Origin: Escherichia phage LHE287
DNA length: 64,000 nucleotides
Sequence record: PP761450.1
Strand: one strand, 5' to 3'
Shown here: positions 20,269 to 62,202 of the stretch, in pieces
Layout of the letters: each line of letters begins with the position of its first letter
Numbering within the stretch: position 1 is the first letter of the stretch
Notes under the pieces: generated by a model
The model's input: the letters and a program-made list of their open reading frames with translations, nothing else
Database searches by the model: none
What the model was told of the DNA's origin: nothing
Position numbers and translations under genes: made by a program

Positions 20269-20640
20269 ATGAAACAGTTCGTAGGATTATACGCAGTCGG
20301 GTGTAGTAAGCCAGACGCCAACCTCACCACAGGTCAATTTATCACAGGCACCCCAGTTTATCTGACACAGCTGGCGTCAGACAAGAACTTACCATCGGAG
20401 CCGCGATTTGTCCCTCTGGGTTTGATGACAGGCCTGAAAGTTGGTCTGTATGTCGGTGCGGTGACGTTTGAAAACGGCATCGAAGCGAAGGTTCTGCCAT
20501 TCAAATTGGGTAGCGAACAAATGCTGAAGGATACGATCAGTGAACACCTGAACTCACAATGTCTGGCTTCTCTGGACAAATTGTTCGGTGTAGTAACTGA
20601 TGAAGGCGAGGCCACCCCCGCCTATGTGAATCAAGATTAA
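20269..20640 (+). CDS. hypothetical protein (lone plus-strand gene)
   Basis: 123-aa ORF; stop overlaps the stop of the converging helicase gene. Confidence 0.5.
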   Translation: MKQFVGLYAVGCSKPDANLTTGQFITGTPVYLTQLASDKNLPSEPRFVPLGLMTGLKVGLYVGAVTFENGIEAKVLPFKLGSEQMLKDTISEHLNSQCLASLDKLFGVVTDEGEATPAYVNQD

Positions 20641-22170: not shown

Positions 22171-22177
22171 TATTTAG
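22171..22177 (-). promoter_or_regulatory. late-promoter-like CTAAATA motif
   Basis: Minus strand CTAAATACCCC about 26 nt upstream of helicase start. Confidence 0.4.
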
Positions 22178-23931: not shown

Positions 23932-24202
23932 AATAGCACCTTTGCTGTGGAGATATTTTGTGACCCTGATGCGCGGGATCAGTAGATTGTTGTTGGCATG
24001 CTCGATGCTCTTGTTTACGAGCTGTCGCATCTTTGTCACGCCAATAATTTCTGTTTCCGAACTCTGGAACCCAGAAGTGCGCACTGTACCTGTGACGTTG
24101 TCGGCCAGCGTTCCCACTTGTAACAAGGGTATGCTGGACATCATCGTGCAAGAGTTCCAGCCCTTCCAGAAGCTCGTACCTTTAGGTTGCTTTGATGAGA
24201 AC

Positions 24203-24610
24203 ATGAGCACCCTCAAGCCATACTGGAAGACCACAATTCCTCTCCTGCGGCATGGCGATGAAGGGAAGATTCCATACCTATCAGCAAGTATTTATTACTC
24301 TCAGAACAACAGCATCATTATCACCTTTAATCCATCATTCTACGCCAAGCTGAAGCAACAAATGGTTGGACGACTGGGTACAACATCAGATATAATCGTG
24401 ACGTTCAAGATCATGAATGACTCAGATAAACCAGTACGAATCGCAACTCAGGGTGTGTTCGTTAACAACGAAGCGGTTGGAAATGGGATGAGTATCTTTG
24501 AAGTTAACCCAGGGGGAACGATCTTGATCAGACTGAGTAATGTGGGTGTGAACTCCCTGCTGTTGGATGGCATCGAACCAGTGGGAGTTCTTCCGGCGCG
24601 GGAGCACTGA
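24203..24610 (+). CDS. hypothetical protein (plus strand)
   Basis: Plausible start MSTLKPYW within ORF 23795..24610; converges tail-to-tail with 24611..25339. Confidence 0.35.
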   Translation: MSTLKPYWKTTIPLLRHGDEGKIPYLSASIYYSQNNSIIITFNPSFYAKLKQQMVGRLGTTSDIIVTFKIMNDSDKPVRIATQGVFVNNEAVGNGMSIFEVNPGGTILIRLSNVGVNSLLLDGIEPVGVLPAREH

Positions 24611-34920: not shown

Positions 34921-34946
34921 GGTCGTTCTCCTCTGAATAGTGTAAA

Positions 34947-34953
34947 TATTTAG
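34947..34953 (-). promoter_or_regulatory. late-promoter-like CTAAATA motif
   Basis: 27 nt upstream of the tail tube gene. Confidence 0.45.
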
Positions 34954-35311
34954 TTTTGAAATAAATGGGGGTTAAAATACCCCAAAGTGAGGATATTTAT
35001 TATGTCATTCCCCCGATAAAATTGTTCATGCTACCACAAACCGTTCACCCCAACCAGGAAGGCTGCGTTGTATTGTAGTGACGAATGTAAATCATTCATG
35101 CTGGGAACGATGAAACGCAACTCAGATTTATTGGTCAATCTTCCGGCGACCGAAACTGAATGCCGCTCTTGGGTTGATAGTAAACTCAGGAAGAAAGATG
35201 GTTCGTTGAACTTGGATACGATACAGAAGGAAAACAGAGGATATGCTGGCGATAGAAGCCGGGTTGGGTGTATCTGGGGTGTGGTCTTATCCGGTATGAA
35301 CTGGAAACTAA

Positions 35312-35330
35312 AACCCCGCCTCAGCGGGGT
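35312..35330 (-). terminator. hairpin terminator
   Basis: aaccccgcc-tca-gcggggt followed on the minus strand by TTTAGTTT. Confidence 0.5.
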
Positions 35331-35336
35331 AAACTA

Positions 35337-38118: not shown

Positions 38119-40347
38119 TCACCGTCTCAGCCATTCTTCCATAGACACACCAGAGCGTTCATCATAAACCTGAATTCCACCGAACCCTGGGATGTTCTCC
38201 ACAGAGTGAGGATCTGGTGTCGACATCATACCCCCAAATGGTAGCATCTGAGATTCTTCCATCGCAGACAACCGTCCTCTCATGTCCACAGAGATATTTG
38301 AATTGGTGAGATCACTAAACCATTCTTGTTTCACCGCCCATGCATACAACACGAGGGGCATTACACAGTCATCATGACAACCATCATCGGCTTCATACCT
38401 TGTTCCAGTCCATACGAATGTACTGAGTTCATCTATCGTGTCCTGGTCATCTATCACCAGCATTTCACGTTCAATCAGGGCTTTCAGGTTGGCACAGCCG
38501 TTTGTGCGCACCTTCTTGTTGGTATTGATACCAGGCTCAGGGCGGCGACCACCGATTCTCTTGCCTGTACCCTTGGTATCTGTTGTAGTGAAGATGATCT
38601 CGGGATATTCAATTTCCTGGTATAGAATTGTGATTACCTGACCACCCACGTCGTTGTTGGTCTCGACTAGCATCGGGCACGTTCCATACTTCTCACCCAT
38701 ATCGGCGATTGTGTACGCGTACATCATTGGAGGTATCGTGTTATTTCGATACTTGGCTGCGATCTTGTGAGGATAGTCTGTGATGTCGATAATGGTCAGC
38801 ACAGAATAATCCCCTTCGACACCCTTGCCTGTATCTGCGATACCCATATAGATGCGCTTAGGATCGTAGTCGTGATAAATCTTGGTGAACTCGTTCGGCT
38901 CCTGATACAGCTTCGAGGTCATCTTGTCCAGACACTTGGCAGGTATCAGTGATCCCACAGAACCACGGAACTTAATGCCAAATTCTTGATCGAAACGTGC
39001 ATCACCCAGCTTCGCCCTTTGTTTGGATTCCCAGTCTGGATCTTTGGTGTACGTTGGAACACGATACCATGGGACCTCTGTGAGTTTGAAGTCGTTGTAT
39101 TGTGGATGTTCTGGGTTCGCCTTGGTGACGATGTCGTAGAACAACCCGCGCTGACCTTTCGGCGTACTGGTCAGAATACAACGTGAAGTCTCTGCAGATG
39201 CAATCGCCGGGAATGTAGACTCCCAGAATTCAAAGTCGTTTTCAATGAACGCCACTTCGTCCACATACAGGAGCGATACAGATCGACCACGGATGGAGTC
39301 GGAAGATGTCGCATAGGCGTAGATCTTTGATCCGTTTTCGAACTCTATCAGCGTGGAACCGAACTTCTCACAACCCTGTTGGAGGAAGAATGGCAAATCT
39401 TGATATGCTTTGCGAATACGATCTAGGATTTCAATCGCCTGCTTCTCTTTGTTCGCCAGTACTGCGATCTCTTTGTCGGAGTGGAACATCGCATACCAGA
39501 GCAGGAACGCTGCCACGACAGTCGTGTTGTGGCTGAGGAAGCCGTTGGTGTAGTAGCGCTGATCACTAGATTTCACCTGTAGGTCATACATGTGATGCGT
39601 CTCACCAGTCTGCCAAACCTCACGGATTTCTTCTGGACCTTCTGACGTCATGATGTATGACCCAGCATTCAGGTCTTTGGCAAATATCTCCTTCATTTCC
39701 GGAGTGAAGAATATATGTTCGTCGGCCACGTTAATTCGCCGCCCAGTAACAGTCACAATAACGAATTCCGCATATTTCTTCGTCTTATGCGCTGCGATAA
39801 CCGGAACCCAGCCACTATCGGATTGCACAAAGTAACGCTTGCCGAAGCGGCTGTCCACGAACTTGTCATGGTTGCCAATGGTATTCAGCGGCACAGCGTG
39901 GTTGACGTCCTCGAAGCGGCTGTGAAGCTCCCCTATGGTCAGGAGCAACTGCTCTTGGCTGAGAGTATCGTAAACTGTGACAAGCGTGTCACCTTTTACA
40001 CATTTCCCAGACTGACGAGCCTGGACGACCGCATTGAATCGATAGTCCTGGAAGTCATGGAACAACTGCTTCTGGTAATCGTGCATGTCAAAGAGGATGA
40101 AGCCTTTATCGATGGTCGTGATCTTGTAGTAGTTGGCGGCGAAGTAATGGGCGTCCATCGCACACTCGACGAACTCCGATTCTTGTTCGTCGGTTAGCAT
40201 CAACTCCACACGAGGTGCACGCACAGACGGCTTGCGCATGAACGTTTGGTCCATACGCAGTCTGACGTCTTCTGTCTTAAACCCCGTCTTGAGCGGGGCG
40301 TATTCTACATCACGCTTCTGATACGCCATTGTCTTCACCTTCTCCAT
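38119..40347 (-). CDS. gp17: terminase large subunit (gp17-like) interrupted by an in-frame mini-intein
   Basis: Exteins match T4 gp17 around the P-loop (ARQSGK / TTVVAAFLLWYAMF...AIEILDRIRKAYQDLPFFLQQG); 159-aa insertion begins CVKGDTLV and ends NGFLSHN followed by Thr. Confidence 0.85.
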   Translation of the reverse strand: MEKVKTMAYQKRDVEYAPLKTGFKTEDVRLRMDQTFMRKPSVRAPRVELMLTDEQESEFVECAMDAHYFAANYYKITTIDKGFILFDMHDYQKQLFHDFQDYRFNAVVQARQSGKCVKGDTLVTVYDTLSQEQLLLTIGELHSRFEDVNHAVPLNTIGNHDKFVDSRFGKRYFVQSDSGWVPVIAAHKTKKYAEFVIVTVTGRRINVADEHIFFTPEMKEIFAKDLNAGSYIMTSEGPEEIREVWQTGETHHMYDLQVKSSDQRYYTNGFLSHNTTVVAAFLLWYAMFHSDKEIAVLANKEKQAIEILDRIRKAYQDLPFFLQQGCEKFGSTLIEFENGSKIYAYATSSDSIRGRSVSLLYVDEVAFIENDFEFWESTFPAIASAETSRCILTSTPKGQRGLFYDIVTKANPEHPQYNDFKLTEVPWYRVPTYTKDPDWESKQRAKLGDARFDQEFGIKFRGSVGSLIPAKCLDKMTSKLYQEPNEFTKIYHDYDPKRIYMGIADTGKGVEGDYSVLTIIDITDYPHKIAAKYRNNTIPPMMYAYTIADMGEKYGTCPMLVETNNDVGGQVITILYQEIEYPEIIFTTTDTKGTGKRIGGRRPEPGINTNKKVRTNGCANLKALIEREMLVIDDQDTIDELSTFVWTGTRYEADDGCHDDCVMPLVLYAWAVKQEWFSDLTNSNISVDMRGRLSAMEESQMLPFGGMMSTPDPHSVENIPGFGGIQVYDERSGVSMEEWLRR
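39526..40002 (-). other. mini-intein coding segment within the terminase large subunit gene
   Basis: N-terminal Cys codon at 40000-40002, C-terminal His-Asn at 39526-39531, +1 Thr; YDLQV...NGFLSHN block; no endonuclease domain (159 aa). Confidence 0.75.
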
Positions 40348-41711: not shown

Positions 41712-42362
41712 TTATTCTCCAAAGTCGATCTTCATCTTGTCTGTTGCAAGCCCCTTCTCAAGATCATCTGCTAAAGCATTGTCGGTCTGCAGAGAAGAAT
41801 CCTTGTACACGTCCGGTTCGTTCTCTTCGTCCAAGATGGACAGACGTTTGTCGATATCGTCGATCTCCGGAACGCCCGTATCGAAGTTTTCGTTGCCGTA
41901 CTGGAACAACGTACACGGCAGAGAGAACGTATACCATTTGCCAAATTGCATGAAGTCTTCATCGTTGTTCGGGTTGTTGACCTTGAAGATCTTGTTCGCC
42001 AGTGGTAGATAGATCAGGTCACCTTCCTGAGGTTGTTGTTCAAACCCAACACCGTTGCCTATCACCTCGGCAAATCGGCGGCGCGAGATAGAGAACGTCA
42101 CTTCGTCTTGCAATTGGATACCCCCAAACTTCTCCCACATCTGGGTGTTGAAGCCCTGATAATCCTGCATGTATGCTTCGATGTCGAACGCCTGATCGAA
42201 TCTGTGGTTAGCATCGTTGGTGATAGGAAATTTTTCAACGATGGAACGGGGTATATACTTGATGTCTATCCCGCGCAACTCAATCATTTCCTGTACCAAA
42301 TCTTCAATCAGCTTCTGTGTGCCTTGGTGATTGGTGGCGTTGAAATATTTAGAAGTGGCCAT
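41712..42362 (-). CDS. neck protein-position (gp14-position)
   Basis: Synteny; CTAAATA late motif upstream (42386). Confidence 0.4.
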   Translation of the reverse strand: MATSKYFNATNHQGTQKLIEDLVQEMIELRGIDIKYIPRSIVEKFPITNDANHRFDQAFDIEAYMQDYQGFNTQMWEKFGGIQLQDEVTFSISRRRFAEVIGNGVGFEQQPQEGDLIYLPLANKIFKVNNPNNDEDFMQFGKWYTFSLPCTLFQYGNENFDTGVPEIDDIDKRLSILDEENEPDVYKDSSLQTDNALADDLEKGLATDKMKIDFGE

Positions 42363-42385
42363 ATCGATACCCTCAATTTTGAAGG

Positions 42386-42392
42386 TATTTAG
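42386..42392 (-). promoter_or_regulatory. late-promoter-like CTAAATA motif
   Basis: 24 nt upstream of the gp14-position gene. Confidence 0.45.
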
Positions 42393-42421
42393 TCGAAGTT
42401 TATTCTTTTGAGGAATAGCTC

Positions 42422-42634
42422 ATGCAAGTGGAAGACATCAAAGAAGTTCGCAGCGGTCGTCGCGTCCGAATCATCTGTGTGGACGCCAAGATTGGAGGTG
42501 GTGATTACGACATCGTCGGTCTGGTGAAAGAAGTAGATGGCACAGACTTCATTGAGTGGTGGAACTCCAAAGACAAGACAGAAGACGGTCTGCTGCGTGG
42601 TAGTGGCAACGGAAACCTGGATTTGAAAATCTAA
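42422..42634 (+). CDS. hypothetical small protein (plus strand, inside the neck gene block)
   Basis: 70-aa ORF with GAGGA RBS; followed by a GC hairpin. Confidence 0.4.
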   Translation: MQVEDIKEVRSGRRVRIICVDAKIGGGDYDIVGLVKEVDGTDFIEWWNSKDKTEDGLLRGSGNGNLDLKI

Positions 42635-42642
42635 AAGAAGGG

Positions 42643-42660
42643 CGGGTAATCCCGCCTTTC
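42643..42660. terminator. hairpin shared by converging genes
   Basis: gggcggg-taat-cccgcc, T-rich on both sides. Confidence 0.4.
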
Positions 42661-42661
42661 C

Positions 42662-43420
42662 TTATCCCATGTAGAAGTCGATAGGGTACTGCTGACCAGT
42701 ACGCAATTCTTCCTCTAAACGCTCTATCTCCGCTTCAGCCTCACTGAACATACTATCGCCATCCAGCTCGATACCGCCAGGGAGACGGATGCCTCTTGCC
42801 TTCTTGAGCACTTCTGCCCAGCGGCGCTTGACCAACGCAGTTGCATATGCCTTCAGCCACATATCATTCCATGCTTCTTCATTACCCTCAACCTCTGGGT
42901 CGATGTTCTGGAAGCATTTGAACGCCAACACCTCGTCCTTTGTCAGGGCGAATTGTGGGTAGAGTTTGCGCTGGAATTTCTTGTAAACGAAGGTGCGCTT
43001 CACGTTCAGCACACTGGTGATGTCAGACAAACGCTGTTGCATTGAAACATAGTCGACCAAGCGGATGGAAACAAGGGCGGCCTTTGGTACCAACATGGCT
43101 TGGGCCATCTGCCATTGAGGGGTTGCCCAGTTACCGATCGATTCAATCGGAGGGCCAACGATGACTTCAACCACGTCGTCGATGTCTTTGGGGAATTCGA
43201 TGTAACCGTTGGTGATAGTTTCTTCAGTCACCTGGTGAACAAAGAATGCGTCCTGACTGCCATCACGATGATACTCCCAAAACTTCTGTAGAGCATCGTC
43301 TACAGCATCCGAAACTTGCGTTGGGTCAAGGTTGATCTGAATTACAGGTGCCCCCAATTTCTTGAGAATGTAATTCATAAATCCTTTACGATCAACAATA
43401 GAATTAACGGCCATTGCCAT
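42662..43420 (-). CDS. neck protein-position (gp13-position)
   Basis: 252-aa ORF; synteny. Confidence 0.4.
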   Translation of the reverse strand: MAMAVNSIVDRKGFMNYILKKLGAPVIQINLDPTQVSDAVDDALQKFWEYHRDGSQDAFFVHQVTEETITNGYIEFPKDIDDVVEVIVGPPIESIGNWATPQWQMAQAMLVPKAALVSIRLVDYVSMQQRLSDITSVLNVKRTFVYKKFQRKLYPQFALTKDEVLAFKCFQNIDPEVEGNEEAWNDMWLKAYATALVKRRWAEVLKKARGIRLPGGIELDGDSMFSEAEAEIERLEEELRTGQQYPIDFYMG

Positions 43421-49141: not shown

Positions 49142-49480
49142 ATGTTACCTGACACCACACAAGTTGGCATATTGACCTCCGCATTCTTCAGGAACTATTG
49201 CAGGAGGTGCTGGTACAGCAAGAGATGGAGAACGAAAACAAGACGAACCAATGGAACTATGGTAGTATGTTCAGACGCTAGTGTTAAAGTACAAGGTACT
49301 GACATTGCTAACAGGGACAACGTATTAGCTACATACACACTTGGTTCAACTGACCCATTCATGGTGGATGGTATTCAGTTGGGTATGTTTAACATATCCG
49401 GTCAGACTATTACTTTAACTGCTGTATCGGTAAGGGTAATGCAAACAGTTAACTCTATAAAAAGTATTATTAATAAGTAA
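49142..49480 (+). CDS. questionable plus-strand ORF
   Basis: Listed ORF without a convincing RBS; C-terminal 70 aa look protein-like. Confidence 0.3.
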   Translation: MLPDTTQVGILTSAFFRNYCRRCWYSKRWRTKTRRTNGTMVVCSDASVKVQGTDIANRDNVLATYTLGSTDPFMVDGIQLGMFNISGQTITLTAVSVRVMQTVNSIKSIINK

Positions 49481-57448: not shown

Positions 57449-57455
57449 TATTTAG
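57449..57455 (-). promoter_or_regulatory. late-promoter-like CTAAATA motif
   Basis: CTAAATACCCCTA with inverted copy TAGGGGTATTT before the start at 57411. Confidence 0.45.
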
Positions 57456-61632: not shown

Positions 61633-62202
61633 ATGCATATTAACACAGCAATCATGAAACACATTATTCCTTTGTTAGCAAAATACGAAGGGGAACGCGC
61701 CACGAAAATCCCTTTTGGAACAATCACCGATGAAGTAAAACGCCTGACAGGTAAAAGTATCAATTTCCGTCGCGTTATTGAATCTGCGTTAGAGTTGGCC
61801 CGTTCTGATTTACGAAATCCAACATTTTCATTTAATATTGACATAACTTCTTCACTTCGACAAGAATTGGAAGAATCATCACAAGCACGGCGCGATCGCT
61901 TCCGTCATTTATATGTTCGTAACGAATTCTCTGAAAGTCGTGTTGGTATGAAACTGGAGTCTATTCGTTCTGACATTTGCTTCACTGTCAACTATGTTTT
62001 AGAGCCAGAAAGTGGGCGCATTTATTTTGGCGCGATTATCGGTTTCTATGGGAACTCTATTAATGGTTGGGCTGAACGCGTTGGATTAAAAGAAACCCAG
62101 AACACTCATTCCACACCTTCTACCCATTATATGACGCATGAAGCTGCTGGTGAATATGTTTACATTCTGCGTCGTATTGTGAAGTTAGAAGTGTTAAAAT
62201 AA
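61633..62202 (+). CDS. hypothetical protein (plus strand)
   Basis: 189-aa ORF downstream of the divergent intergenic region. Confidence 0.45.
   Translation: MHINTAIMKHIIPLLAKYEGERATKIPFGTITDEVKRLTGKSINFRRVIESALELARSDLRNPTFSFNIDITSSLRQELEESSQARRDRFRHLYVRNEFSESRVGMKLESIRSDICFTVNYVLEPESGRIYFGAIIGFYGNSINGWAERVGLKETQNTHSTPSTHYMTHEAAGEYVYILRRIVKLEVLK

What the first reader, a model, noticed from the sequence alone, without database searches (positions are those of the whole stretch)
42422..42660. Plus-strand 70-aa gene embedded between neck genes with a shared hairpin
This is the only plus-strand ORF inside the late structural operon. It has a good RBS (GAGGA) and ends at a GC hairpin (42643-42660) that could terminate transcripts from both strands. 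An antisense-embedded gene could be a regulator or a moron.
Basis: seen in the sequence. Interest (0 to 1): 0.4.

Follow-up and report, generated by a model that had tools for sequence, protein, structure and literature searches.

The report
Known small gene between phage neck genes
This is a real, strongly conserved 70-amino-acid phage gene of unknown function, sitting backwards between two neck genes and sharing a two-way transcription stop signal with one of them; the gene and its terminators were already annotated and published for close relatives in 2011-2012.

Summary
The window comes from an Ackermannviridae (Agtrevirus-like) phage. It is 99% identical here to Escherichia phage ZQ1 and 90% to Shigella phage Ag3. 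The ORF at 42422-42634 (+), its GAGGA ribosome-binding site and the hairpin at 42637-42660 are all present.

The ORF is a true gene. dN/dS is 0.07-0.23. A 67-80-aa homologue (70 aa in most genera) lies between gp14 and gp13, on the opposite strand, in five genera. It matches phrog_4466 over its full length.

The hairpin keeps its position and stem in all five genera. One base pair has flipped, the loops vary freely, and Erwinia phage Bue1 has an entirely different stem. A-rich and T-rich flanks fit a two-way intrinsic terminator.

The gene lies in a gap between two late transcription units. gp14 has its own late promoter (CTAAATA, 42386-42392, minus strand). The plus strand has no such motif.

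The protein is an acidic small beta-barrel with no significant structural or family match to anything characterised. It was not among the 39 virion proteins found by mass spectrometry in LIMEstone1. Distant homologues lie among early or accessory phage genes.

Ag3 orf201 and terminators Torf201/Torf202 (2011) and the LIMEstone1 paper (2012) already describe this arrangement. "Moron" is not supported, and "regulator" cannot be tested here. Interest is low.

The parts
42422..42634 (+). 70-aa protein gene including its TAA stop. It matches phrog_4466 and is identical in protein sequence to Shigella phage Ag3 orf201. Calculated mass 7.8 kDa, pI 4.8.
   Evidence: ORF and translation. phrog_4466 match E 5e-35 over 70/70 positions, with no Pfam hit. 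100% protein identity to Ag3 and ZQ1. dN/dS 0.07-0.23, and 5 synonymous against 0 non-synonymous differences versus Ag3. Mass and pI.
42410..42414 (+). Shine-Dalgarno sequence GAGGA, 7 nt upstream of the ATG.
   Evidence: Read directly from the sequence. TTGAGGAAT is invariant in the 12 aligned genomes without the endonuclease insert, from three genera.
42637..42660 (.). Hairpin shared by the convergent 70-aa gene and gp13; a probable two-way intrinsic terminator. Stem 42637-42646 / 42651-42660, loop TAAT. The flank is A-rich on the 5' side and T-rich on the 3' side on both strands.
   Evidence: Fold energies and z-scores. Terminator scan hit on the - strand. 96% of cells paired across 14 sequences, one G-C to C-G flip (7 against 7) and free loops. 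In Erwinia phage Bue1 a different stem (GAGGGGC/GCCCCTC) sits at the same place and is called as a terminator on both strands. Published as Torf201(+) and Torf202(-) in Ag3.
42386..42392 (-). Late-promoter core CTAAATA for gp14, 23 nt upstream of the gp14 ATG. It restarts late transcription after the terminator.
   Evidence: The motif occurs 13 times on the - strand and 0 times on the + strand of the window, and 11 of the 13 lie just upstream of an RBS and ATG. TATTTAG is invariant in 12 genomes of 3 genera and is also present in Bue1.
42232..42259 (+). Candidate sigma-70-like promoter for the 70-aa gene, TTTTCA-16 nt-TATACT, embedded in gp14 codons 35-44. This is an inference, not a demonstrated promoter.
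   Evidence: Consensus scan hit with 9 of 12 matches, although hits in this region are no more frequent than chance. The pattern is kept exactly in all 27 loci of four genera. The four two-fold codons under the hexamers never vary, against a 13% background. The pattern is absent in Bue1.
41712..42362 (-). gp14 neck protein (head closure Hc2), transcribed divergently from the 70-aa gene.
   Evidence: Pfam T4_neck-protein E 7.6e-27 and phrog_679 E 1.3e-70. Annotated as gp14 in relatives.
42662..43420 (-). gp13 neck protein (head-tail adaptor Ad2), convergent with the 70-aa gene. Its stop codon lies 1 nt from the hairpin.
   Evidence: phrog_211 E 3.1e-42. Annotated as gp13 in relatives.

Best explanation
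The locus is a small, self-contained gene unit that is part of the conserved Ackermannviridae backbone. It fills the gap between two late transcription units.

On the minus strand, the late unit that ends with gp13 stops at the hairpin (42637-42660). Late transcription restarts for gp14-gp17 from a separate CTAAATA promoter at 42386-42392.

The 70-aa gene lies between these two signals on the plus strand. It has its own Shine-Dalgarno sequence and uses the same hairpin, read in the other direction, as its terminator. The hairpin therefore works as a two-way insulator. It keeps gp13 read-through from running antisense across the small gene and into the gp14 promoter. It also keeps the small gene's transcript from running antisense into gp13.

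The product is a soluble, acidic small beta-barrel of the Sm/Tudor/SH3 type. Its family is widespread among phage early and accessory gene arrays. It is most likely a non-virion accessory protein that acts by binding a partner protein or nucleic acid, and it is probably not transcribed from a late promoter.

Shown: the gene is real and conserved, the hairpin is conserved, the gp14 late promoter is present, and no late motif occurs on the plus strand.

Inferred: that termination really occurs in both directions, when the gene is expressed and from which promoter, and what the protein does. The molecular activity remains unknown.
For: Gene reality:
- Homologues are found in 288 phage records.
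- dN/dS is 0.07-0.23 with synonymous sites saturated between genera. Variable columns by codon position are 37/28/65.
- The protein matches phrog_4466 over its full length.

Position:
- The gene has the same place and orientation in Agtrevirus, Taipeivirus, Kuttervirus, Limestonevirus and Nezavisimistyvirus.

Terminator:
- Fold energies and z-scores support a stable hairpin on both strands.
- The stem shows one compensatory flip and the loops vary freely.
- Bue1 has a wholly different stem at the same position, called as a terminator on both strands.
- The Ag3 authors listed terminators on both strands at this hairpin.

Separate late units:
- CTAAATA occurs 13 times on the minus strand and 0 times on the plus strand, with one copy 23 nt upstream of gp14.

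Non-structural, accessory character:
- The protein is absent from the 39 LIMEstone1 virion proteins found by mass spectrometry, while both flanking neck proteins were detected.
- Distant homologues lie beside DNA ligase and topoisomerase genes, or within arrays of small genes next to HTH, YopX, DUF551, methyltransferase and helicase genes.

Fold:
- The AlphaFold2 model has mean pLDDT 82 and shows four main beta-strands plus short C-terminal bridges, modelled as a small beta-barrel.
- Only fold-level matches to Tudor, KOW, Sm or SH3-type barrels were found.

Native origin:
- Base composition matches the neighbours.
Against: - No transcript data exist for any member of this phage family in the literature I could search.
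- No convincing plus-strand promoter was found. The 59-nt gap holds only TTGAAG-16-TATTCT (my reading of the sequence), whose start site would fall inside the Shine-Dalgarno sequence.
- The better candidate, inside gp14 (42232-42259), is a 9-of-12 consensus match in a region where such matches are no more frequent than chance. It is absent in Bue1.
- The plus-strand T-tract after the hairpin is mediocre (TTTCCTTA).
- The LIMEstone1 record annotates a putative late promoter on both strands in the relatives that carry the endonuclease insert, so late expression is possible there.
- Small proteins are easily missed by virion mass spectrometry.
- The strict linkage to gp13 and gp14 in five genera could reflect a role in neck assembly.
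Confidence: 0.6

Rival explanations
1. The small protein is a late-expressed helper of neck or head completion, for example an assembly chaperone for gp13/gp14. It would be transcribed from a two-way late promoter in the gp14-proximal gap, and that role would explain why it never leaves this position.
For: - The gene lies between gp13 and gp14 in five genera.
- The LIMEstone1 GenBank record marks a 'putative late promoter' on both strands between gp14 and the plus-strand genes.
- In relatives that carry the endonuclease, the plus strand reads TTTAAATA there, one mismatch from the T4 late consensus TATAAATA (the consensus is from my own knowledge).
Against: - The window has no CTAAATA or TATAAATA motif on the plus strand near the gene. 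All 13 CTAAATA cores lie on the minus strand.
- The protein was not among the LIMEstone1 virion proteins, although a chaperone need not be in the virion.
- Homologues in Vibrio and Yersinia phages and in metagenomic phage contigs lie in replication or accessory gene arrays, not next to neck genes.
- T4 assembles its neck without such a protein (my own knowledge).
Confidence: 0.2
2. The unit is a mobile or selfish insertion: a moron, or cargo of the neighbouring homing endonuclease cassette seen in relatives.
For: - The gene has its own terminator and the opposite orientation, and it lies between genes that are adjacent in T4 (my own knowledge).
- In 7 of 25 related loci a GIY-YIG-type endonuclease gene sits immediately upstream on the same strand.
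Against: - The 70-aa gene is present with or without the endonuclease.
- Between PhaxI and Ds25CZ it is 67% identical in DNA, like its neighbours (74-76%), whereas the endonuclease is 92% identical. Only the endonuclease is moving.
- GC and GC3 are native.
- No Ackermannviridae genome examined lacks the gene.
Confidence: 0.07
3. The ORF is not translated. The gap is only a spacer holding the terminator and the gp14 promoter, and the open frame is incidental.
For: - There is no expression or proteomic evidence for the product.
- There is no clear promoter.
Against: - dN/dS is 0.07-0.23, with 5 synonymous and 0 non-synonymous changes against Ag3.
- Third codon positions vary about twice as often as first or second positions.
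- The length is 70 aa in most genera (67-80 aa overall).
- The Shine-Dalgarno sequence is conserved.
- A profile of the family finds 2,430 related proteins.
Confidence: 0.03

Closest known systems
Shigella phage Ag3 orf201 with terminators Torf201/Torf202 (Anany et al. 2011, PMC3121705), and its counterparts in Salmonella phage Vi01 (CBW38033) and Dickeya phage LIMEstone1 (ORF153; Adriaenssens et al. 2012, PMC3296691)
   Same: The protein is identical (70 aa, pI 4.8). It has the same position between gp14 and gp13 on the opposite strand. The same hairpin is listed as a terminator on both strands. [quoted passage not shown]
   Different: Nothing of substance. The flanking DNA is 90% identical to Ag3. 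LIMEstone1 and some Kuttervirus genomes carry an extra endonuclease gene upstream that this window lacks.
PHROG family phrog_4466 (unknown function) and, more distantly, Pfam PF26890 Phage_HP1_YO09
   Same: The window protein matches phrog_4466 over its full length, E 5e-35. A profile built from distant relatives finds 2,430 proteins sharing the TRDGRxVRIxCxD...VVGL...DG.E...W core. Some of them carry precomputed weak or faint PF26890 hits.
   Different: The window protein has no PF26890 hit on record, and the local Pfam copy does not report that model. Many relatives are longer (110-130 aa, with a C-terminal extension) or contain the domain two or three times.
Bidirectional intrinsic (Rho-independent) terminators between convergent bacterial and phage genes
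   Same: A GC-rich stem, an A-tract on one side and a T-tract on the other so that both strands read hairpin plus U-run. It is placed exactly between two convergent stop codons and is conserved by structure rather than sequence.
   Different: Termination has not been measured. In this window the plus-strand U-run is interrupted (UUUCCUUA). It is stronger in Taipeivirus and Bue1.
Tudor-like RNA-polymerase-interacting domains (CarD/CdnL N-terminal domain, Mfd RID, UvrD/PcrA C-terminal domain) and other small beta-barrels (KOW, Sm, SH3)
Phage morons (independent promoter-gene-terminator units inserted between conserved late genes; concept recalled from my own knowledge)
   Same: A small gene with its own terminator, between two late structural genes that are adjacent in T4.
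   Different: The gene is conserved across the whole family rather than sporadic. Its composition is native. No promoter has been identified. The phage is virulent, so there is no lysogenic-conversion rationale.

Membership tests
phrog_4466 (phage protein family of unknown function) | Significant full-length match to the family HMM | tested here: met
   E 5e-35, 120 bits, residues 1-70 matched to profile positions 1-70 of 70.
Orthologue of Ag3 orf201 / LIMEstone1 ORF153 | Same sequence family at the same genomic position (between gp14 and gp13, opposite strand, followed by the shared hairpin) | tested here: met
   100% protein identity to Ag3, with identical neighbours and spacing.
Pfam PF26890 Phage_HP1_YO09 | Match to the Pfam model above its gathering score | tested here: inconclusive
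   The local Pfam scan gives no hit for the window protein or for relatives. Precomputed hits on distant relatives are marked weak or faint. The model appears to be missing from the local library.
Bidirectional intrinsic terminator | Stable GC-rich stem-loop followed by a U-run on both strands | tested here: met
   Fold energy is -18.7 kcal/mol on the + strand and -17.1 on the - strand. The tails read UUUCCUUA (+) and UUCUUUUA (-). The consensus scan lists only the - strand here, but both strands in Bue1.
Bidirectional intrinsic terminator | Structure conserved through sequence change in relatives | tested here: met
   96.4% of cells are paired. One pair flips G-C to C-G (7 against 7 sequences). 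The loops are unconstrained. Bue1 has an unrelated stem sequence at the same site.
Bidirectional intrinsic terminator | Transcript 3' ends at the hairpin on both strands | not testable with these tools
   No transcriptome of an Ackermannviridae phage was found in the held literature.
Moron | Own promoter as well as own terminator | tested here: inconclusive
   The terminator is present. Only weak sigma-70-like candidates were found, and there is no late motif on the + strand.
Moron | Sporadic presence among close relatives and/or foreign base composition | tested here: not met
   The gene is present in every relative examined across five genera. Its GC is 49.3% against 48.5% for the window, and its GC3 (0.55) is close to that of the neighbouring genes (0.57-0.64).
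Homing-endonuclease cassette (as cargo) | Co-occurrence and co-transfer with the endonuclease gene | tested here: not met
   18 of 25 loci have the gene without the endonuclease. Endonuclease DNA is 92% identical between PhaxI and Ds25CZ, against 67% for the 70-aa gene.
CarD/TRCF-type RNA-polymerase-interacting Tudor domain | Sequence match to the family (Pfam CarD_TRCF) or a strong structural match | tested here: not met
Virion structural protein | Detection in purified particles | not testable with these tools
   Literature only: ORF152/153 are absent from the LIMEstone1 virion proteome table, while gp13 and gp14 are present. Absence of a 7.8-kDa protein from such a table is weak evidence.

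The most novel reading that the evidence does not exclude
The 70-aa beta-barrel is a host-takeover factor that docks on a host machine, for example on the RNA polymerase beta lobe in the manner of the CarD/Mfd/UvrD Tudor-like domains. It would be made from a promoter hidden inside gp14 (42232-42259). Its roughly 155-nt leader would then be antisense to the gp14 start region and late promoter, so the unit would also hold back neck-gene expression before the late phase.
Probability: 0.08. Interest if true: 0.55.

Novelty: already known. Interest (0 to 1): 0.18.

Why it matters
It matters little beyond annotation. The gene, its odd orientation and the two-way terminator have been on record since 2011-2012 for phages Ag3, Vi01 and LIMEstone1, always as 'hypothetical protein'.

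Three modest points of value remain:
- The small beta-barrel domain belongs to a large family, about 2,400 proteins found with a profile, with no assigned function. It is common among phage accessory genes, so a function found in one tractable Ackermannviridae phage would carry over widely.
- The locus is a clean natural example of a two-way terminator insulating convergent units inside a late gene block.
- The gap next to gp14 is a landing site for a GIY-YIG-type homing endonuclease that moves between subfamilies. This is useful to know when comparing or engineering these therapeutic phages.

Tried and rejected
- Pfam, NCBIfam and PADLOC scans of the protein and of distant relatives gave nothing usable.
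- A profile search against PDB sequences gave only a chance-level chitinase fragment, E 0.22.
- An Rfam scan of 42000-43000 gave no family.
- Literature searches for an Ackermannviridae, Kuttervirus or CBA120 transcriptome and for PF26890 gave nothing relevant.
- A late promoter for the plus-strand gene was rejected because the window has no CTAAATA on the plus strand.
- A sigma-70 promoter within the 59-nt gap (TTGAAG-16-TATTCT, my reading of the sequence) was rejected as unlikely, because its start site would fall inside the Shine-Dalgarno sequence.
- The ORF at 49142-49480 (+) was considered as a second embedded gene. It has no family match and is not annotated in Ag3, so it was treated as spurious.
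- Homogenisation by endonuclease-driven co-conversion was considered as the cause of the conserved synonymous sites in the gp14 5' end. It is not excluded, but the region as a whole is not homogenised between genera.

Full report
**Identity of the window.** The 1.8 kb around the finding is 99.4% identical to Escherichia phage vB_EcoM-ZQ1 and 90% identical to Shigella phage Ag3. It has matches in 287 phage records, all ViI-like phages of the family Ackermannviridae. The flanking minus-strand genes are the T4-type neck proteins. gp14 lies at 41712-42362 (Pfam T4_neck-protein E 7.6e-27; phrog_679). gp13 lies at 42662-43420 (phrog_211).

**Check of the observation.**
- The ORF at 42422-42634 (+), 70 aa, is present.
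- GAGGA lies at 42410-42414, 7 nt before the ATG.
- The 27 nt between the TAA of the ORF (42632-42634) and the TAA of gp13 (42662-42664, minus strand) is filled by a hairpin. Its stem is 42637-42646 / 42651-42660 and its loop is TAAT.
- The hairpin folds at -18.7 kcal/mol on the plus strand (z = -3.8; none of 200 shuffles as good) and -17.1 kcal/mol on the minus strand (z = -2.3).
- It is flanked by AAAAGAA on one side and TTTCCTT on the other, so each strand reads hairpin plus U-rich tail. The consensus scan lists it as a terminator on the minus strand.
- The phrase 'only plus-strand ORF inside the late structural operon' is loose. In Ag3 it is the only plus-strand gene between the capsid gene and baseplate gp6. 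However, a plus-strand DUF7424 gene (E 3e-57) lies beside tail-completion gp3 at about 23960-24610, and there are others at 20269-20640 and 61633-62202.
- The block is not a single operon (see 'Transcription architecture' below).

**It is a real gene.**
- tblastn finds the protein in 288 phage records.
- In all 25 loci I extracted, the frame is intact and the length is 67-80 aa, with 70 aa in most genera.
- Against Ag3, whose flanking DNA differs by 10%, the ORF has 5 synonymous and 0 non-synonymous differences.
- In the between-genus pairs where synonymous sites are not saturated, dN/dS by the Nei-Gojobori method is 0.07-0.23. Within Kuttervirus, where only a few substitutions separate the sequences, the ratio is 0.41-0.75.
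- Variable alignment columns by codon position are 37/28/65.
- Residues 3-47 are almost invariant across the closer genera, while the C-terminal third varies.
- The protein matches phrog_4466 (unknown function) over its full length at E 5e-35. It has no hit in the local Pfam, NCBIfam or PADLOC libraries.

**The position is family-wide.** The homologue lies between gp14 and gp13 on the opposite strand, followed by a hairpin, in five genera:
- Agtrevirus (Ag3, ZQ1)
- Taipeivirus (0507-KN2-1)
- Kuttervirus (PhaxI)
- Limestonevirus (Ds25CZ, LIMEstone1)
- Nezavisimistyvirus (Erwinia phage Bue1)

Base composition is native: GC is 49.3% against 48.5% for the window, and GC3 is close to that of the neighbouring genes.

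**The hairpin.**
- Across 14 distinct sequences of four genera, 96.4% of stem cells pair.
- One pair is G-C in seven sequences and C-G in the other seven.
- The loop is free to vary (TAAT, GGAA, AAAC, ATAA, TTAT, ATTT and others).
- In Bue1 the stem sequence is entirely different (GAGGGGC...GCCCCTC) but sits at the same place. There the scan calls it a terminator on both strands.
- This is conservation of structure and position, as expected of a functional two-way intrinsic terminator. Termination itself has not been measured.

**Transcription architecture.**
- CTAAATA occurs 13 times on the minus strand of the window and never on the plus strand. Eleven of the 13 lie 15-70 nt upstream of a ribosome-binding site and ATG of a minus-strand gene.
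- It is evidently this phage's version of the T4 late promoter TATAAATA (the T4 consensus is from my own knowledge and from the text quoted).
- One copy lies at 42386-42392, 23 nt upstream of the gp14 ATG. TATTTAG is invariant in 12 genomes of three genera and is present in Bue1.
- So the minus-strand late unit ending with gp13 stops at the hairpin, and gp14-gp17 restart from their own promoter.
- The 70-aa gene occupies the space between these two signals. It is not antisense to any coding sequence.

**The plus-strand promoter was not identified with confidence.**
- There is no late motif on the plus strand.
- Within the 59-nt gap I can read only TTGAAG-16-TATTCT, whose start site would fall inside the Shine-Dalgarno sequence.
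- The scan finds TTTTCA-16-TATACT at 42232-42259, inside gp14 codons 35-44. Such hits are no more frequent here than in shuffled sequence (4 found against 3.4 expected).
- This pattern is kept exactly in all 27 loci from four genera.
- The four two-fold-degenerate codons beneath the two hexamers (K35, Y36, E43, K44) never vary. Only 13% of such codons elsewhere in gp14 are invariant, giving a naive post hoc P of about 3e-4.
- Codon-invariant positions are enriched in the first 58 codons of gp14: 14 of 41 against 7 of 112 (Fisher P = 4e-5).
- The pattern is absent in Bue1.
- I treat it as a candidate only.

**The protein.**
- AlphaFold2, run on 19 homologues, gives mean pLDDT 82 and pTM 0.68. 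The model shows four main beta-strands plus short C-terminal bridges and no helix.
- Foldseek against the PDB finds nothing significant (best E 0.62). Its top hits are Sm and ribosomal barrels.
- Foldseek against viral models returns only uncharacterised phage proteins.
- An exhaustive profile search finds 62 cluster representatives. A second profile, built from distant hits, finds 2,430 proteins.
- These share a TRDGRxVRIxCxD...VVGL...DG.E...W core. The domain occurs alone, with a C-terminal extension of about 50 aa, or in two or three tandem copies.
- A few carry weak hits to Pfam PF26890 (Phage_HP1_YO09).
- Where context is available, they sit in arrays of small phage genes next to HTH, YopX, DUF551, AcrVA2-like, methyltransferase, UvrD-helicase or PD-(D/E)XK genes, or between DNA ligase and topoisomerase III in Yersinia phage GN1.
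- The window protein is acidic, with pI 4.8.
- In LIMEstone1, both flanking neck proteins were found in virions by mass spectrometry, but ORF152 and ORF153 were not.
- Together this points to a non-structural accessory protein that works by binding a partner. What it binds is unknown.

**Prior description.**
- The Ag3 record annotates orf00201 (+), and terminators on both strands at the hairpin.
- Table S1 of the Ag3 paper lists orf201 (213 nt, 70 aa, 7,795 Da, pI 4.8, homologue in Vi01). Table S2 lists Torf201 (+, -15.7 kcal/mol) and Torf202 (-, -11.9 kcal/mol).
[quoted passage not shown] Its GenBank record marks a putative late promoter on both strands and a terminator.
- The finding is therefore already known as a feature. 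Only the function is open.

**The second 'hypothetical protein' in relatives.**
- In PhaxI, LIMEstone-type phages and several Kuttervirus genomes (7 of 25 loci), a 235-238-aa gene lies upstream of the 70-aa gene on the same strand.
- It has two CapR domains and a T5orf172/MUG113 (GIY-YIG superfamily) domain, and it matches phrog_681 'endonuclease' at E 1e-58.
- Its DNA is 92% identical between PhaxI (subfamily Cvivirinae) and Ds25CZ (subfamily Aglimvirinae). gp14, gp13 and the 70-aa gene are 67-76% identical between the same two phages.
- Downstream of the insert there remains a copy of the old gp14 start (…GAAGTAGCCAT plus its ribosome-binding site and late promoter). The functional gp14 has a recoded 5' end and a new upstream region.
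- This is the signature of a free-standing homing endonuclease. It shows that the 70-aa gene itself is resident and not mobile.

**Verdict.** 'Moron' fails on distribution and composition, and 'regulator' is untested. The feature is already annotated and published, and the protein is one more member of a large phage family of unknown function. Interest is low.

Noticed in passing
window 38119-40347 (-), insert at about 39526-40002: The large terminase subunit (742 aa) carries an insert of about 159 aa in its Walker-A loop (…ARQSGK | CVKGDTL…FLSHN | TTVVAAF…). The insert has the Cys1 and His-Asn/Thr+1 boundaries of a mini-intein. The Pfam Intein_splicing match has E 1.3e-6 but falls below the gathering score. 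Bue1 TerL is about 160 aa shorter.
   Followed up: partly
window, minus strand: 61314, 57455, 56744, 53798, 48903, 42392, 42352, 38115, 34953, 31412, 25374, 22177, 17749: CTAAATA occurs 13 times on the minus strand and never on the plus strand. Eleven copies lie just upstream of gene starts, so it is evidently the late-promoter core of this phage. At 57455, 53798 and 25374, and less perfectly at 22177, it is followed by a 5'-leader hairpin that reuses the promoter's 3' end (ATACCCC…GGGGTAT).
   Followed up: partly
L004 728-1438, L005 1225-1932, L021 1753-2469 (related loci; absent from the window): A GIY-YIG-type (T5orf172/MUG113 plus CapR) endonuclease gene is inserted between gp14 and the 70-aa gene in 7 of 25 relatives. 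It is 92% identical in DNA between two subfamilies whose flanking genes are 67-76% identical. The insertion left a remnant of the old gp14 start and brought a recoded gp14 5' end. A second variant (64% protein identity) has a different junction.
   Followed up: partly
window 42232-42259 (+), inside gp14 codons 35-44: The sigma-70-like pattern TTTTCA-16 nt-TATACT points toward the 70-aa gene. It is kept exactly in all 27 loci of four genera, with invariant synonymous sites under both hexamers, and it is absent in Erwinia phage Bue1. Codon-invariant sites are enriched in the first 58 codons of gp14 (14 of 41 against 7 of 112).
   Followed up: partly
window about 23960-24610 (+): A second opposite-strand gene lies next to a structural gene (tail-completion gp3). 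It is 216 aa, matches DUF7424 at E 3e-57, and is the homologue of Ag3 orf172. Ag3 annotates a stem-loop at its 3' end.
   Followed up: no
window 34921-35336: The closest relative, ZQ1, carries a 1.8-kb plus-strand 'putative homing endonuclease' gene between the tail tube gene and the next minus-strand gene. The window has only a gap of about 416 nt there, so this is another polymorphic endonuclease site.
   Followed up: no
L033 2425-2501 (Erwinia phage Bue1): In Bue1 the gp14 late-promoter core (CTAAATAA on the minus strand) is bracketed by an 8-nt inverted repeat (TTATTGTT…AACAATAA). The small gene probably starts 45 nt upstream of its annotated start, giving 80 aa after a strong AGGAGG site.
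   Followed up: no
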